DNA of 64,000 nt from Candidatus Oxydemutatoraceae bacterium (GTDB lineage Bacteria; Pseudomonadota; Gammaproteobacteria; Poriferisulfidales; Oxydemutatoraceae). Positions within the stretch are counted from its first letter, which is position 1. Each line of letters begins with the position of its first letter. Position numbers and translations under genes: made by a program. Shown in pieces: positions 5,082 to 55,183 of the stretch. The stretch covers positions 42,018 through 106,017 of the forward strand of contig OZ245010.1 of assembly GCA_965223735.1 (NCBI GenBank). Reading direction: 5' to 3'. The notes under the pieces were generated by a model. It ran no database searches. It was not told the DNA's origin and was given only the letters and a program-made list of their open reading frames with translations.

Positions 5082-6803
5082 CTAGATATAACCGAGGGCT
5101 TTGATCTTGGCGTAGATTTTGTCAACCGACTCTTCAATACCCGCGTGGCTCGTGTCGATGACAACCTCGGGGCTTGTCGGTATTTCGTACGCGTCGTCGA
5201 TGCCGGTGAAGTGGTGCGTCAGGTTCTCGCGCGCCCTCAGATAAAGGCCTTTGGTGTCGCGTTTTTCACAGACCTCGAGCGGCGTGCTGACGTACACTTC
5301 TATATATCCGCCGTACCGGGAGATCAATTCGCGGTTCGTCTTGCGGTCTTCCTCGTAGGGTGCGATCGGCGCGCAGATCGCGATGCCGCGGTTTTTGGTG
5401 ACCTCGCTAGCGACGTAACCGATGCGGCGCACGTTCAGTGAGCGGTGTTCGTGTGAGAAAGTCAGTTCGCTCGACAGGTGAGAGCGCACGACGTCGCCGT
5501 CGAGCAGGGTGATGTCGGGGCGGCAACGCTCGCACAGCTTGACTCTCAGCGCCTGGGCGAGCGTGGATTTTCCGGCGCCTGACAGGCCGGTGAAAAACAC
5601 GGTGAAGCCGTGTTCTTTCAGCGGCGGGTGTGTCCTGCGCAGTTCTTCGGCAATCCGCGGCAGGGTGAACCACTCGGGGATCGGGCTGCCGCGGTCGAGC
5701 AGCGCGCGCAGTTCGGTCCCTGATATCGAAAGTGTTTTTTCCCTCGTTTGCACCTCGCTCATGAATATGTACTTTTTCTTTTGCGGGTGGTACACCATGT
5801 GATCGAACGCGGCGGCTTCGATGCCGATTTCGGGCGCGTGCTTGATCAGCGCGTGCTGCGCTTCAAATTCGCCGTAGAATGGTTTGCCGGTATTGTCTTT
5901 GCCTGGCCCTGCGTGATCCCTGCCGACGATTATATGCGTGCAGCCGTAGTTCTTTCTGATGATGCCGTGCCATAATGCTTCGCGCGGGCCACCCATGCGC
6001 ATCGCGAGCGGCAGCAGCGACAGCATCACCGAGCCCTTCGGGTAATGGCCGAGAACGTGCTGGTAGCAACGTGCGCGCGTGTAATAGTCAACGTCGCCGG
6101 GCTTGGTCATGCCGACTGCGGGGTGTAGGAGCAGGTTCGCGTCGTGTTCCTGCATCGCTTTTTCGGTCAGCGCGATATGCGCCAGATGCATCGGGTTGCG
6201 GGTCTGAAAAGCCACCACTTTTTCCCAGTTTTTGCGCTTGAATTCAGCCCGCAATTCCGTCGGCGTGTGACGGTATTCGCGGTAATCTACATGGTAGATG
6301 CCGAATATTTTTTGCAGTTCTCCGCTGACATATACCGAGTGCGAGGTGGTGAACAGATAATTGACCGCGGGATGTGAGCGGTTCTGCGTCGCATACACGA
6401 GTTGCGCCTCGCGTGCGGGATCCGGTTCCCAGATTTCGGACAGCGTCAGGATTGCGATTGCGAAGCCTTCGCGGTTGCGCAGGGTGATCTTGTCGCCCGG
6501 CGACAGCGGGGCGATGAATTCCCTGGAAATATCGAGCGTGACCGGTATCGGGTAGAGGTTGCCGTCGGCAAGGCGCATGGTTTCGAGTACCGACTCGTAA
6601 TCGGCGCGGTTCATAAAACCCGCCAGTGGGGCGAGACCGCCGTTGAGCAGCAATTCGATGTCGCAGATCTGGCGCTCGCTGAGCGTCCAGAAAGGATAGT
6701 TGATCGCCTCTTTTGTCAGTTCCGTGCGTTTGGCTTCCGACGGCGACCGACCGGCGGGGCTTTCACCGCTTCGTGGATCGTCAACGGGGTACAGTAAGGC
6801 CAT
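5082..6803 (-). CDS. sat: Bifunctional sulfate adenylyltransferase / adenylylsulfate kinase
   Basis: AFQTRNPMH, VGRDHAG (Sat) followed by FTGLSGAGKST, LDGD (CysC). Confidence 0.95.
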   Translation of the reverse strand: MALLYPVDDPRSGESPAGRSPSEAKRTELTKEAINYPFWTLSERQICDIELLLNGGLAPLAGFMNRADYESVLETMRLADGNLYPIPVTLDISREFIAPLSPGDKITLRNREGFAIAILTLSEIWEPDPAREAQLVYATQNRSHPAVNYLFTTSHSVYVSGELQKIFGIYHVDYREYRHTPTELRAEFKRKNWEKVVAFQTRNPMHLAHIALTEKAMQEHDANLLLHPAVGMTKPGDVDYYTRARCYQHVLGHYPKGSVMLSLLPLAMRMGGPREALWHGIIRKNYGCTHIIVGRDHAGPGKDNTGKPFYGEFEAQHALIKHAPEIGIEAAAFDHMVYHPQKKKYIFMSEVQTREKTLSISGTELRALLDRGSPIPEWFTLPRIAEELRRTHPPLKEHGFTVFFTGLSGAGKSTLAQALRVKLCERCRPDITLLDGDVVRSHLSSELTFSHEHRSLNVRRIGYVASEVTKNRGIAICAPIAPYEEDRKTNRELISRYGGYIEVYVSTPLEVCEKRDTKGLYLRARENLTHHFTGIDDAYEIPTSPEVVIDTSHAGIEESVDKIYAKIKALGYI

Positions 6804-6856: not shown

Positions 6857-7511
6857 GGGAATTATATACTTAAATCTACAAAGACTTCAGTATCCATTTG
6901 ACACTTCACAGGCCGGCTAACGCCGCCACCTCCACGTCCAACTGTCCAATTCCCAAAGGCCAAGATATTCAACGCGGCATTGATATCCGCGTTGTCCCGA
7001 TGAGTGCACTTCACGCACTCGAAAACCGATTGCGACTTTCTGTTCGCCGCATCCATACGCCCGCAGACATGGCAGGTTCGGCTGGTGTAGGCTGGCGACA
7101 CCTTCACCACCGTCGCCTTGTACGACAGGCATTGCTCCGGCTTGTACCAGCCTGTCGCCAATATCCCACGGTTCAAACCGCTCTTTTTATAAAACTTCCT
7201 GTAATTTATCTCTATTGCTTTAAGGGGCGTCCTGACAATGGTGCATGAGTATTCATTCAGCCACGGATCCGTTTTGCGCAGGTTGGTAAAACGTTTATAC
7301 AGCGAGTATGCCCGGGGATCACATTGGCCGTAAAACACATACTTATCCCTCAATACACCGACAAAGTGATTCCACACATAACGGCAGGCGCTGGCCGTCG
7401 CCCACAATTTCCTCGCTTTCGCGCGGGTTTGAGGATGTATCCTGTATCGGATTGTTCTATGTGCTTTAGTCTGTTTAGCATGACTTTGTAGATTTTTTGT
7501 ATATGGTTCCC
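6857..7511 (-). mobile_element. tnpB: TIR-bounded tnpB element, internally deleted (655 bp)
   Basis: Imperfect ~29-bp TIRs (GGGAATTATATACTTAAATCTACAAAG / GGGAACCATATACAAAAAATCTACAAAG); flanks aattataa / agttataa; TnpB N-terminus (TIRYRIHP..CRYVWN) fused to the Zn-finger/RuvC-III end (CHVCG..CVKC..DNADINAALNIL). Confidence 0.88.
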
Positions 7512-17986: not shown

Positions 17987-18077
17987 GGCCGTTGAGGTGA
18001 CCTTTGTGTCTTGTTGAAGGTGCCGTCCCGCCGGTGTTCCTGTGGAGCGGCGATGGGATTTTACCCGCTTATTTTAA

Positions 18078-18200
18078 GGGAATTATATACAATAGTCCCT
18101 AAAGGACTTGTGTATCCGTTTGACGCTTCACAGGCCGGCTAACGCCGCCACCTCCACGTCCAACTGCCTCATTCCCGAAGGCCAGGATATTCAGTGCGGC
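18078..18200 (-). ncRNA. Putative omegaRNA (reRNA) scaffold overlapping the tnpB 3' end
   Basis: GGACG-TGGAG..CGGC-GTTA-GCCG..GAAG-CGTC pairing plus terminal stem AGTCC/GGACT; segment nearly identical in the 6857 copy; boundaries approximate. Confidence 0.55.
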
Positions 18201-19300
18201 ATTCATATCTGCATGATCCCGATGACCGCATTCGGTGCAGTGAAAACTGCGTCCCGCGCGGCTCTTCTTGTTTCTGTATGACCACAGACATTACATGTCT
18301 GACTGGTATAGGCCGGTGGCACCTTCACTACCGACGCCTTATACGACAGGCATTGCTCCATCTTATACCAGTCCTCGCCAGTATCTCGCGGTTCAGGCTG
18401 GCTTTTGCTTTAACATTCTTGCCGGGTTCGGCCTCTGTACCCTTCGCGCTCGCCGTCATCCCCTGCGTGTTCAGGTCTTCCATGTAAACCACATCATACT
18501 TGCGCGCTATCTCTCGTGAGACCTGATGACACCAATTAGTGCGCGTCTGCGCAATCTGCGCCGACGTCTGTTGCGTCCACTTGCGCGCGCGTGGATAACG
18601 ACCTGATGCTCTGCGCTTTTCCTTCCTGCTCCCACCATCACGCCTTGCCATCATCCGTTGATAACGACGCTTCCTTGCTTTCAACAAAGAGGTATCCGGC
18701 GCGTGATAGATCGTCCCGTCGGACAACGCTACTTGGCCGACGTTACGGTCTATACCGACCTCTTTAGGCACGTGCGGCCAAATCGCTTCCTGTTCCGTCT
18801 CATACACCAAATACGCATACCAGTCGCCGTGCTTGTTCTTGATGGTGCCGCTGACGGCCTTTGCGTCGGGATACGGGTTATGGCTGATGGGCCTCACCTG
18901 CCCGATTTTCGCCACATGCAGCCAGTCACCAATTCAGTCTAAATGCGCTGGCGACCAACGGGATACTGGCTGTTGCAGTGTAGCGCCCCTTGAACTTCGG
19001 CAGGCCGCCCTGCCCCTTCCAAAGCCCCTTGTAATTCGTCTCTATCGGCTTAAGCGACGCCCCGACTATGGCGTATGAGTATTCATTCAACCACGAATAC
19101 GCTTTGCGTAAGTTTGTAAAACGCTTATACAGCGAATATGCCCGCGGATCACACTTGCCATAGAACACATACTCATCTCTCAACACGCCCACGAGGTGGT
19201 TCCACACAAACCGGCAAGCGTCAGCGGTTCCCCATAACTTGCTCGCCTTCGCGCGCGTCGTCGGGTGCAAGCGGTAGCGAATTGTTCTATGCGTTTTCAT
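18100..19300 (-). pseudogene. tnpB: RNA-guided endonuclease TnpB, about 3 frameshifts
   Basis: HTH N-terminus, GLPKFK, RuvC-I VGIDRN, RuvC-II YMEDLN, Zn finger CNVCG..CTECG, RuvC-III HADMNAALNIL, spread over several frames. Confidence 0.9.
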
Positions 19301-19475
19301 CGGGGACTATTGTATATAATTCCCTGTTTTAACCGGGGTGTCTGGCAGGTTGCCTGACGGGGTTGTTTTTGATGCTCGATTGCAATGCCGCCCCGACGCC
19401 GGCGCGGGTCGGCATTTGTCACGGCAGGGGCCGGAGCGATGTCGTGCCGAGCATCGTATCCCGGACAGTGCCCGG

Positions 19476-42269: not shown

Positions 42270-42545
42270 CGCATGGTTCACGGCGACGGTGGTGAAGGCG
42301 CCGCCGTATGATGCGGAACAGAGAAGTCATGCCTGCGGGCATACGGCAGGAGACAGCCGCGGGGCGCAAAGCGGCCTTTGCCGTGTCCGATGCGGTGATC
42401 GGGACAATGCGGAGATGGATGCGGCGCGGAATATCTCGGCCTTCAGGAATGAGATTGCCGCGGGTGGCGGCGGCGACACCGGGGCCGGCGCAACGTGAAA
42501 TACGTGTGCGTCTCCTCTGTGGGGGATCAGGCATATAGCGCCTGC
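42270..42545 (+). pseudogene. tnpB: Heavily decayed tnpB 3' remnant of the same element family
   Basis: ggcgacggtggtgaagg shared with the 6857 copy; translates VVKAPP..HACGH..VRCGDRDNAEMDAARNISAF; boundaries approximate. Confidence 0.7.
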
Positions 42546-43808: not shown

Positions 43809-43834
43809 AACGGATGACGGAAATAATATACTTG

Positions 43835-43872
43835 GGGAATTATATACTTAAGCCTGCAAGGGCTTCTGTACC
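43835..43872 (-). mobile_element. Isolated right (3') end of the tnpB element family
   Basis: GGGAATTATATACTTAA identical to 6857-6873, followed by a similar hairpin-forming segment; cut off by the IS481-like element. Confidence 0.7.
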
Positions 43873-44311
43873 TGCATGACGCCACCCTATACGGGACACA
43901 AGAGGCAAATGTCGTGCCGGCATTGACAGGGTGTCGAGTCGCGGCTTGATTTGGCCTTTTGGCGTCAGGCGTGTCGGTAGTCAACCGCGCCGATCGTGCG
44001 CATACCGGGACAAGTCATGCAGCACGTTCAAGCCCCCGGTGCAGTAGGTCTGGCGTCGGTCGTGCACGGTGGAGCGGCTGACCTTGAATGCGTCAAGGGT
44101 GGCCCTGGAGTACAATCGGGGCCATGTTTGTCCCGGAATGTCAGGGTTTCGAGTTTCTGTTGGGCATTGGTTCGTATGGTCTTGTCTCCCATTTGGCAGA
44201 TAAAGAGGCGACTTTACAGAAACCTTTGGGGTGGAAGCCGATGTGCCGGTCCCCCGTATAACGGTTTCCTTTTTAATCAGGCCGGGGGCCGTATGTTTTT
44301 GGCCTCATACA
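43873..44311 (-). mobile_element. IS481-family deletion derivative (MITE-like, 439 bp)
   Basis: Left end TGTATGAGGCC..CATACGG at 44311 and degenerate inverted copy TGCATGACGCC..TATACGG at 43873; homologous to 8949-9430. Confidence 0.7.
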
Positions 44312-53869: not shown

Positions 53870-54257
53870 ATGCCATCTTTGAACACCAGCAAGGTTGCCT
53901 TGCGGGGTGTGATGCAAGGCCATCCGAGATATGGCAGGGGAGTTTTTCCAGGTGATGGCGGTTCATACGCCGGCTCACATGGTTCTCAGCGCCGCTTCGT
54001 CGATCATTCAGCGAAAGAAAGAAGGTGTAAATGCGACGGCTCGCGTCAACGGCGTTGAGTCGGCGTGGGTGATTTTGCAACACGGGTATGACGGCGTTTG
54101 TCAACGGATGAGCGCCAAATACTTGCGCCGTTATATGGATGCGTTCTTGTTTTGCCTGAAAGGCGGCGACGCAGAACGTGACGTGGCAGGTCGGACGGGT
54201 TCATTATGCGACCGCCTCCGCGGCAGGCGTAGCGTGCGGCCGATGGCGGGGCGATGA
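53870..54257 (+). mobile_element. IS1595-family DDE transposase C-terminal remnant
   Basis: VDHSAKE then (frameshift) VNGVESAW..L..GY.G....MSAKYLRRYM..F, matching the IS1595 VNHS..HTN.IES.W..LKR..G.YH..S.KHL.RY signature. Confidence 0.78.
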
Positions 54258-55183
54258 GCCGCAAGCGCGCACAAGGGCAGTTCTATACAAGGGGCAACCC
54301 GTTTGACCTGCCGCCGTTCCTCAAATGGGCGGATCAAGCCGGATTGCCCGGCAAGTGCGTGCTGGAGCCGTTTGCCGGGGCGAACAATATCATCAGGACT
54401 CTTCAAAAAGCAGGAATATGTGATGCCTTCAAATCTTACGATCTGACTCCTGCGGACAGGGAAGTAAAGGCGCGCGATACTATAGCGAGATTTCCCGAAG
54501 GCTTTGACGTGTGTGTTACCAATCCGCCGTGGCTGGCCCGCAATTCAGCGACGCGGCGGAGGTTGCCTTTCCCCGGCGTCTGTGCCGACGATTTGTATAA
54601 ACATTGTTTGGAACTTTGCCTGAACCATTGCGGCTACGTGGCGGCGCTGGTGCCCGCAAGTTATCTTCAAAGCGGATTGTTCCGCGACAGGTTACAGACG
54701 TACATCCTGCTGCACGATACGATTTTCAGCGACACTGAAAACCCCGTCTGCCTCTCTTTGTTCGGGAATAAGCCGACCGGGCGGGTGAATATCTACTACG
54801 ACGGTGATGACATCGGAACGCTTGCGTCTTTACTGAAGAAGCTGCCGACGCCGAAGCGGGACAAGCGGGTGAGGTTTAACGACCCCAAAGGCGGTTTGGG
54901 GTTCATTTCATTCGACAACACGAGAGAGCCGTCCATTCGCTTTTGTCACGCGGTTGAGATAAGGGACTATACGATCAAGGTTTCATCGCGCTTCATTACC
55001 CGCATCAGCGGAGATTTTGGAGCCTCAACAAGACTGATCGGAAAATTAAACCGCGCGATCAAAACGTTCAGGCACGATACGCAGGATGTCTTCCTGACGC
55101 CGTTCAAAGGCATCAGGGATGACGGCCGGTATCGCCGTCGCATGGAGTACATGCTGGCGAGGAGGTTTATCAATGCCGCTTGA
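54254..55183 (+). CDS. Putative N6-adenine DNA methyltransferase
   Basis: GQFYT, LEPFAGAN (motif I), VTNPPW (motif IV), DLYK. Confidence 0.75.
   Translation: MSRKRAQGQFYTRGNPFDLPPFLKWADQAGLPGKCVLEPFAGANNIIRTLQKAGICDAFKSYDLTPADREVKARDTIARFPEGFDVCVTNPPWLARNSATRRRLPFPGVCADDLYKHCLELCLNHCGYVAALVPASYLQSGLFRDRLQTYILLHDTIFSDTENPVCLSLFGNKPTGRVNIYYDGDDIGTLASLLKKLPTPKRDKRVRFNDPKGGLGFISFDNTREPSIRFCHAVEIRDYTIKVSSRFITRISGDFGASTRLIGKLNRAIKTFRHDTQDVFLTPFKGIRDDGRYRRRMEYMLARRFINAA

What the first reader, a model, noticed from the sequence alone, without database searches (positions are those of the whole stretch)
18070..19332. TnpB carried between IS1595-type terminal inverted repeats: candidate new class of RNA-guided transposon
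Seen: a full-length tnpB (RuvC D-E-D and Zn finger recognisable, now frameshifted) fills a 1247-bp unit. The unit has perfect 22-bp TIRs (GGGAATTATATACAATAGTCCC) and a 7/8 direct repeat, and encodes no tnpA. Related copies lie at 6857, ~42.3 kb and 43835. Known: IS200/IS605 (Y1) and IS607 (serine) tnpB elements lack such TIRs and do not make 8-bp target duplications. IS1595 elements of the ISNwi1 group have GGnnatTAT ends, 8-bp duplications and carry passenger genes. An IS1595 transposase remnant is present at 53870. Inference: TnpB/omegaRNA was captured by a DDE transposon and moved in trans as a non-autonomous cassette, a bacterial parallel to Fanzor capture by diverse eukaryotic transposons. 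I cannot verify novelty against the literature.
Basis: partly seen in the sequence, partly recalled or inferred. Interest (0 to 1): 0.92.

Follow-up and report, generated by a model that had tools for sequence, protein, structure and literature searches.

The report
TnpB cargo inside IS1595-type transposon ends
This is a decayed copy of a small mobile element that carries an RNA-guided nuclease gene (tnpB) and its guide-RNA scaffold between the inverted-repeat ends of an IS1595-type transposon; pairings of this kind are already published, but apparently not with this transposase family.

Summary
Window 18078-19324 is a 1247-bp unit with perfect 22-bp terminal inverted repeats (TIRs) and a 7/8 8-bp target duplication. 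A frameshifted tnpB fills it.

It belongs to a family of solo-tnpB elements of about 1.25 kb. Two copies in this genome are intact, and many intact copies occur in related symbiont-like Gammaproteobacteria. Of 47 elements examined, 30 carry 8-bp duplications matching at 7/8 or better.

IS1595 transposase elements in the same and sister genomes have the same 8-bp duplications. Their TIRs match the tnpB elements at up to 26 of 26 bases. The complete genome has no Y1 (IS200/IS605-type) or serine transposase. I found no element holding both the transposase and tnpB.

A covarying RNA structure, presumably the omegaRNA, overlaps the tnpB 3' end and includes the TIR. Its last six bases pair with an internal GGGAAT.

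The best reading is a non-autonomous IS1595-type cassette moved in trans.

It is not a new class. Altae-Tran et al. 2023 already describe DDE-linked TnpBs with inverted repeats and solo copies. IS1595 is not named in the text I could read. I rate it a new variant of a known kind.

The parts
18070..18077 (.). Target-site duplication, copy next to the tnpB 3' end (TATTTTAA)
   Evidence: 7/8 match to 19325-19332
18078..18099 (+). Terminal inverted repeat at the tnpB 3' end. It also forms the last 22 nt of the predicted omegaRNA scaffold.
   Evidence: perfect 22-mer, 0 of 100 shuffles matched
18078..18185 (-). Predicted omegaRNA scaffold overlapping the tnpB 3' end. The putative guide would read outward into 18077 and below.
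   Evidence: nhmmer hit E 4e-26; covarying helices in the alignment of 22 element ends
18099..19300 (-). tnpB pseudogene broken by three frame-disrupting indels (about 18932, 18374, 18269)
19303..19324 (-). Terminal inverted repeat at the tnpB 5' end
19325..19332 (.). Target-site duplication, second copy (TGTTTTAA)
6857..7511 (-). Internally deleted sister element. It keeps both TIRs, the omegaRNA domain and the two ends of tnpB. Duplication AATTATAA/AGTTATAA.
42274..42435 (+). Degenerate relic of a tnpB C-terminus with no TIR left
   Evidence: 20.9 bits, below cut-off
43819..43895 (+). Two nested solo TIR ends of the same type
53931..54257 (+). Relic of an IS1595 transposase C-terminus, followed by a 309-aa ORF (54254-55183) with no Pfam hit
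   Evidence: 26.9 bits against a cut-off of 27

Best explanation
The unit is a dead copy of a non-autonomous IS1595-type transposon whose only cargo is tnpB and the omegaRNA encoded over its 3' end.

Shown:
- It has IS1595-type TIRs and 8-bp target duplications.
- The family has inserted at many independent sites, some recently.
- The protein is under purifying selection with the catalytic residues kept.
- A structured RNA with compensatory changes spans the tnpB 3' end and the TIR.

Inferred:
- IS1595 DDE transposases encoded by separate elements bind the shared TIRs and move the cassette in trans.
- TnpB loads the omegaRNA, whose scaffold ends at the TIR tip, so the guide is read from the flank (the duplicated 8-mer plus the DNA beyond it).
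- The complex cuts alleles that lack the element, so that recombination copies the element in.

In this genome the family is old and decaying. Two of six full-length copies are intact, and no transposase here has a fully matching TIR.
For: 1. Ends and duplications. 5 of 6 full-length copies in this genome, 13 of 21 loci from other genomes and 12 of 20 further loci have 8-bp duplications matching at 7/8 or better. That is 30 of 47 elements, all with different 8-mers.

2. IS1595 link.
- Three transposase-bearing IS1595 elements in this genome have perfect 8-bp duplications and TIRs beginning GGGGACTATATAC, GGGAATTATCC and GGTAATTATCC.
- Two of their transposases pass NCBIfam transpos_IS1595 (188.7 and 205.8 bits against a cut-off of 75). 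The one scanned against Pfam (P0002) has both the Zn-ribbon and DDE domains.
- Over the first 26 nt, TIRs of tnpB elements match TIRs of transposase elements as follows: own copies B/G = L115 26/26, L020 = L038 26/26, L097 ~ L114 25/26, L009 ~ L111 24/26.
- 18 of 20 tnpB-positive genomes in the order have an IS1595 transposase, against 9 of 33 tnpB-negative genomes. These genomes are related, so they are not independent.

3. No other partner. Pfam Y1_Tnp and Resolvase give 0 hits in the one-contig, 100% complete genome.

4. Recent mobility. L095 and L096 are 99.93% identical over 1371 bp at sites with different duplications.

5. Function of the protein. D184, E271, D361 and four Cys are invariant in 16 homologues. 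dN/dS is 0.09-0.25 in 8 of 8 pairs. The protein aligns over residues 7-370 to ISDra2 TnpB 8bf8, E 4e-12. It passes NCBIfam guided_TnpB with 175.7 bits against a cut-off of 100.

6. omegaRNA. 22 pairs in 5 helices are 98.1% paired, and 10 pairs show changes on both sides. 0 of 500 shuffles reach the covariation score, and slid controls pair at 25-49%.

7. Empty sites. Two genomes of the same genus (G006, G007) have no element and no TIR between the same two flanking genes.
Against: - No element with transposase and tnpB between one pair of TIRs was found in 53 genomes of the order. I compared the coordinates by eye. The capture event itself is therefore not seen.
- For the window copy's own TIR subtype, the best transposase-element match is only 20/26.
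- G035 has 16 tnpB matches and G052 has one, but neither has an IS1595 transposase at E <= 1e-10.
- 17 of the 47 elements lack a clean duplication.
- Helix 1, the TIR tip pairing with the internal GGGAAT, is invariant. It has no covariation support of its own.
- No RNA data exist, so the omegaRNA ends, the guide and any TAM (transposon-adjacent motif) are unobserved.
- The purine just 5' of the duplication is seen in 30/30 tnpB elements but also in 12/14 transposase-bearing elements (Fisher p 0.096). It cannot be credited to TnpB.
- Transposition in trans and nuclease activity are untested.
Confidence: 0.85

Rival explanations
1. An ordinary IS200/IS605- or IS607-type tnpB element landed inside a pre-existing MITE (miniature inverted-repeat element) or host palindrome, so the TIRs are not its own.
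For: IS200/IS605 elements are known to target hairpin-forming repeats (recalled knowledge). One copy here (F) did insert into the TIR of a mini-element.
Against: - The ORF fills the unit: the ATG is 2 nt from one TIR and the stop lies in or at the other.
- The TIR is part of the covarying RNA.
- 30 independent sites carry different 8-bp duplications.
- The congeners G006 and G007 have no TIR at this site.
- The genome has no Y1 or serine transposase.
- Homologues down to 34% identity also sit in TIR elements with 8-bp duplications.
Confidence: 0.02
2. The TIR cassette is moved by some transposase other than IS1595, or is no longer moved at all and persists only by vertical descent and recombination.
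For: - No exact-TIR transposase partner exists in this genome for the window copy's subtype (20/26).
- G035 holds 16 tnpB matches without a detected IS1595 transposase.
- Copies in this genome are 76-87% identical to each other, so they are old.
Against: - TIRs match transposase-bearing IS1595 elements at 24-26 of 26 bases in four pairings.
- Both kinds of element make the same 8-bp duplication.
- Near-identical copies sit at different sites in a genome that has such a transposase.
Confidence: 0.08
3. The TnpB of this clade has been domesticated for a host or transposon-regulatory role (like the nuclease-dead, TldR-type relatives) rather than acting as a homing nuclease.
For: A 2026 review argues that cut-and-paste DDE elements gain little from restorative homing (PMC13565253). 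The mechanism of IS1595 transposition is not known to me.
Against: The RuvC (nuclease domain) D-E-D triad and zinc-finger Cys are invariant in 16 homologues. The genes are multi-copy, flanked by TIRs and duplications, and not fixed at one host locus.
Confidence: 0.05

Closest known systems
DDE-transposase-associated TnpB branches DDE-1 to DDE-6 (Altae-Tran et al. 2023, PNAS, PMC10691335; passages read)
   Same: tnpB lies between inverted terminal repeats. Solo tnpB copies sit between ends like those of transposase-bearing copies. The tnpB 3' end lies close to the transposon end.
   Different: The only DDE family named in the main text is IS630, and a review adds ISL2 and IS1031. Here the partner is IS1595. 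No transposase-plus-tnpB composite was found. Whether these proteins fall in one of the six branches needs the supplementary tables, which were closed.
IS1341-group solo-tnpB elements of IS200/IS605
   Same: Non-autonomous elements with tnpB and omegaRNA only, dependent on a transposase encoded elsewhere.
   Different: Those have subterminal hairpins, no TIRs and no target duplication, and a Y1 TnpA partner (PMC13565253). Here there are TIRs, 8-bp duplications and no Y1 transposase in the genome.
Fanzor genes captured by eukaryotic TIR transposons (Yoon et al. 2023, NAR, PMC10711439; section 28 and passages read)
   Same: A TnpB-family nuclease sits inside cut-and-paste-type elements with TIRs and duplications. 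The guide-RNA scaffold reaches the TIR.
   Different: This case is bacterial. The protein is compact (about 400 aa) and TnpB-like. In Fanzor elements the short duplication is said to be built into the scaffold. Here the 8-mer varies in sequence, so it cannot be a fixed part of the scaffold.
IS1595-family insertion sequences with passenger genes (ISNwi1-type; subgroup details recalled, family traits from PMC8101967)
   Same: TIRs start with GG, duplications are 8 bp, and cargo is carried beside or instead of the transposase. In these genomes the transposase-bearing elements carry DNA methylase-type cargo.
   Different: The tnpB elements encode no transposase. They are derivatives, not autonomous members.

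Membership tests
TnpB (RNA-guided endonuclease, OMEGA system) | RuvC D-E-D triad and CxxC...CxxC zinc finger | tested here: met
   D184, E271, D361, C333, C336, C351 and C354 are invariant in 16 homologues. The matching motifs are visible in the window copy's frame pieces. Assigning these positions to the catalytic roles rests on recalled motif knowledge.
TnpB (RNA-guided endonuclease, OMEGA system) | Passes curated family models and aligns full-length to solved TnpB | tested here: met
   NCBIfam guided_TnpB 175.7 bits against a cut-off of 100. ISDra2 TnpB 8bf8, residues 7-370, E 4e-12.
TnpB (RNA-guided endonuclease, OMEGA system) | Structured omegaRNA overlapping the gene's 3' end and ending at the transposon end | tested here: met
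   5 helices, 98.1% paired, 10 pairs with changes on both sides, 0/500 shuffles reach the score. No Rfam family matches. The RNA itself was not observed.
TnpB (RNA-guided endonuclease, OMEGA system) | Guided, TAM-dependent DNA cleavage | not testable with these tools
   Needs a bench assay.
IS200/IS605 | Y1 (HUH-type) TnpA as the mobilising enzyme | tested here: not met
   Pfam Y1_Tnp gives 0 hits in the complete genome, while 6 of 14 control genomes hit.
IS200/IS605 | No TIRs and no target duplication; subterminal hairpins | tested here: not met
   Perfect 22-bp TIRs and 8-bp duplications. NCBIfam IS200_TnpB scores 130.3 bits against a cut-off of 425.
IS607 | Serine recombinase TnpA; no TIRs or duplications | tested here: not met
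   Pfam Resolvase gives 0 hits in the genome. NCBIfam IS607_TnpB scores 78 bits against a cut-off of 350.
IS1595 family | TIRs beginning with GG and 8-bp target duplication | tested here: met
   Family traits as stated in PMC8101967.
IS1595 family | Encodes a transposase with Zn_ribbon_IS1595 and DDE_Tnp_IS1595 domains | tested here: not met
   The unit encodes only tnpB. Separate elements with TIRs matching at up to 26/26 do encode such a transposase. It is therefore a non-autonomous derivative, not a full member.
IS1595 family | Mobilised by an IS1595 transposase | not testable with these tools
   Inferred from shared TIRs and duplications only.
DDE-associated TnpB branches of Altae-Tran 2023 | Placement of the protein in one of branches DDE-1 to DDE-6 | not testable with these tools
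   The branch membership lists are in supplementary files, which were closed.

The most novel reading that the evidence does not exclude
A whole diversified TnpB clade (34-100% identity) lives only as a solo passenger on IS1595 ends, as a long-term parasite of a DDE transposon.

Its omegaRNA has been rebuilt around the transposase's binding site. The last six bases of the TIR close the scaffold by pairing with codons of the protein's own C-terminal region. The guide begins in the variable 8-bp duplication. The TAM would be the purine that IS1595 itself prefers on the far side of the duplication.

Mini-elements of about 180 bp that keep only the TIRs and the omegaRNA would then supply extra guides to the few intact TnpBs.
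Probability: 0.3. Interest if true: 0.8.

Novelty: new variant of a known kind. Interest (0 to 1): 0.6.

Why it matters
How an RNA-guided nuclease helps a transposon is understood for scarless 'peel-and-paste' IS200/IS605 elements. It is unclear for DDE elements that make target duplications.

This family offers a compact natural bacterial case with many useful features:
- many intact copies;
- matched transposase partners;
- recent insertions;
- a well-defined RNA fold that overlaps a transposase binding site and a coding region at once.

It is a tractable system for asking where the guide starts, what the TAM is, and how self-cutting is avoided. These questions also bear on how Fanzors spread into eukaryotic TIR transposons. 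It also adds about 400-aa nucleases with new scaffolds to the editing toolbox.

Tried and rejected
- TAM test. The purine immediately 5' of the duplication (30/30) looked like a TnpB-specific TAM. The control on 14 transposase-bearing IS1595 elements gave 12/14, so I dropped the TnpB-specific claim.
- Composite elements. I compared the tnpB and IS1595 transposase coordinates by eye over 53 genomes. The nearest pairs were separate elements 1.4-2.5 kb apart.
- Cargo of the 2.4-2.7-kb IS1595 elements is methylase-type or unknown, not tnpB.
- The metagenome scan returned 9 loci. The 7 I looked at were distant TnpBs with no GGGAATTAT ends, so they were uninformative.
- An exact empty site with a single 8-mer could not be shown. 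The intergenic DNA of the congeners is too diverged for a base-by-base comparison. Only absence of the element and of the TIRs could be shown.
- No RNA holder was listed.
- Laying two DNA-contig runs on intact copy B gave no contig joining across the element and no piece spanning it.
- Rfam: 0 matches.
- dS in the last ~75 codons was lower than in the rest in 4 of 8 pairs only, so that signal is mixed.
- Literature. 'TnpB' + 'IS1595' found 9 papers, none on this by title or abstract. 'ISNwi1' found 2 unrelated papers. 'Fanzor' + 'Merlin' found 4 unrelated papers. Searches gave the papers cited above.
- Rows dropped. L027 and L028 are cut by contig ends, and L029 shares L021's sequence; all three were left out of the end analysis. 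L105 gave no TIR pair.

Full report
**The observation.** None of 100 shuffles gave a match. The 8 bases outside the two ends are TATTTTAA and TGTTTTAA.

The minus strand between the ends carries tnpB in three frame pieces. They hit the three Pfam domains expected of TnpB, each above its cut-off. The start codon lies two bases inside one TIR. By my reading, the stop overlaps the first base of the other TIR. Against the two intact copies of this genome, the window copy has three frame-breaking indels, near 18932, 18374 and 18269.

- a deleted copy at 6857-7511;
- a weak relic near 42.3 kb;
- nested solo ends at 43819-43895;
- a marginal IS1595 transposase relic at 53931-54257.

**A family, not a one-off.** The window lies in a one-contig genome of 1.846 Mb with 58.6% G+C. 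The unit matches 27 stretches of it. The 13-nt TIR tip occurs 19 times exactly, among 67 hits with two or fewer mismatches.

Six copies are full-length or nearly so. Two of them (B and E) have open tnpB frames of about 400 aa. Five of the six have 8-bp duplications matching at 7/8 or better.

A protein-guided scan of species-representative genomes gave 24 loci in metagenome-assembled Gammaproteobacteria. The record titles name Porisulfidus, Oxydemutatoraceae and Thiotrichales. TnpB identity to copy B is 50-64%. Of 21 loci examined, 9 have 8/8 and 4 have 7/8 duplications, and all show TIRs of the GGGAATTAT type, some with mismatches in the tip.

Twenty further loci from the same taxonomic order gave 9 with 8/8, 3 with 7/8, 7 weaker and 1 with no TIR pair. 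In all, 30 of 47 elements have clean duplications, each with a different AT-rich 8-mer. Two copies in one genome are 99.93% identical over 1371 bp at different sites, so transposition there is recent.

More distant subfamilies (34-47% identity) also sit between TIRs with 8-bp duplications. One has a different TIR type. The wide protein search found 1215 clusters at E <= 1e-30. The best 120 listed are 50% identical or more. The only source name given is 'transposase', on 2 of those 120.

**Whose ends are these?** The complete genome has no Y1 transposase and no serine recombinase domain. It has four IS1595 DDE-domain matches, three above the cut-off.

The three lie in elements of 2549, 2546 and 3467 bp. 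These have perfect 8-bp duplications and TIRs beginning GGGGACTATATAC, GGGAATTATCC and GGTAATTATCC. One carries a confirmed N6/N4 DNA methylase (Pfam), and the others carry ORFs that I read as methylase-like without scanning them. Two of the transposases were scanned and pass the NCBIfam IS1595 model.

All 5 related genomes tested first also have IS1595 transposases. Several of their elements share long TIR stretches with tnpB elements. The TIR of this genome's copies B and G equals that of a transposase-plus-methylase element in a sister genus over 26 of 26 bases. Other pairings reach 26/26, 25/26 and 24/26. For the window copy's own TIR subtype the best match is 20/26.

Across 53 genomes of the order, tnpB of this clade is in 20 and the IS1595 transposase is in 27. 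18 of the 20 tnpB-positive genomes have the transposase. Two do not at E <= 1e-10, one of which has 16 tnpB matches. I found no element with both genes.

Two genomes of the same genus lack both the element and any TIR between the same flanking genes, and a third has a truncated relic there. The TIRs therefore belong to the element, and they are IS1595-type.

**The RNA.** An alignment of 22 element 3' ends shows nucleotide conservation beyond what the protein needs. RNAalifold and an explicit pair count give five helices with 22 pairs:
- 98.1% of cells are paired, against 87.5% in shuffles and 25-49% when the partners are slid.
- 10 pairs have changes on both sides.
- No shuffle of 500 reaches the covariation score.

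Four helices covary. One of them pairs the inner part of the TIR with upstream sequence. The outermost helix pairs the last six bases of the TIR (ATTCCC) with a GGGAAT about 100 nt upstream, inside the coding region. It never varies, so it has no covariation support of its own. TnpB guide RNAs are reported to pair bases just before the guide with bases about 130 nt upstream (PMC10711439, figure legends read). This resembles that arrangement.

A profile of this RNA domain finds 34 places in the genome, far more than the two intact genes. At least five are mini-elements of about 180 bp that keep the TIRs and the RNA domain but no ORF.

**The protein.** The catalytic D, E and D and four zinc-finger cysteines are invariant in 16 homologues. 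dN/dS is 0.09-0.25 in all 8 pairs tested. The protein aligns end to end with solved ISDra2 TnpB. It passes the general NCBIfam TnpB model but neither the IS200 nor the IS607 exception model.

**How it likely works.** Shown: the anatomy, the mobility, the constraint on protein and RNA, and the shared ends.

Inferred:
- An IS1595 transposase made elsewhere moves the cassette.
- The omegaRNA ends at the TIR tip and reads its guide from the flank, starting with the duplicated 8-mer.
- The nuclease cuts element-free alleles, whose far flank supplies the TAM, while the occupied site shows the TIR tip there instead.

A purine sits just 5' of the duplication in 30 of 30 tnpB elements. It does so in 12 of 14 transposase-bearing elements too. 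It is therefore a trait of IS1595 insertion sites, not evidence for a TAM. By analogy with IS200/IS605, where the TAM equals the transposase's target motif, it remains a candidate.

**What is known.** Altae-Tran et al. 2023 report six DDE-associated TnpB branches, all with inverted terminal repeats, and solo TnpBs between near-identical ends. A 2026 review names ISL2, IS630 and IS1031 as the DDE partners and cites that paper. IS1595 does not occur in the PNAS main text. A full-text search for TnpB with IS1595 gave 9 papers, none on this topic by title or abstract.

**Verdict.** It is not a new class. It is a new variant of a known kind: an IS1595 partner, solo copies only, and a scaffold that overlaps the TIR. 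The window copy itself is a dead relic.

Noticed in passing
G000:C1:1242395-1242575; also near 978288, 360661, 1598338 and 1805102 (outside the window): Mini-elements of about 180 bp that keep IS1595-type TIRs and the omegaRNA domain but have no tnpB ORF. A profile of the RNA domain finds 34 places in the genome against two intact tnpB genes.
   Followed up: partly
L003:1001-3549, L005:288-2833, L035:1052-3434, L115:351-2966: Transposase-bearing IS1595 elements here and in sister genomes carry cargo. L003 has an N6/N4 DNA methylase (Pfam) plus a 210-aa ORF with no Pfam hit. The others have methylase-like ORFs that I read by eye, some ending in what looks like an HNH motif.
   Followed up: partly
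L004:12-36 and 5933-5957 (G000:C1:1241411-1241435 and 1247332-1247356): A run of about 25 C and a run of about 24 G form an inverted pair 5.9 kb apart, bracketing a region that contains one IS1595 element.
   Followed up: no
G035 (whole genome, same order): 16 tnpB matches, many with open frames, but no IS1595 transposase at E <= 1e-10. These cassettes are either orphaned or use a partner I did not detect.
   Followed up: no
G000:C1:1597220-1598452: tnpB copy F sits inside the AT-rich TIR of an omegaRNA mini-element. This is a nested insertion that fits the AT-rich target preference.
   Followed up: partly
L083-L089 (G056, G035): tnpB subfamilies at 34-37% identity lie between a different TIR type (GGGGCTTCAG...GTGTGGAAT). 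In group L083-L085, two of three copies have 8-bp duplications matching at 7/8 or better. The partner transposase was not sought.
   Followed up: partly
L067 (G008:C12, about 18054-18131): A genome of the same genus has a truncated relic of the element's 3' end in the same intergenic region as the window copy. Two other congeners have none.
   Followed up: partly
insertion sites of 30 tnpB and 14 transposase elements: There is a strand-asymmetric purine just 5' of the 8-bp duplication on the side of the gene start (42 of 44 sites). No mirror-image pyrimidine appears on the other side.
   Followed up: partly
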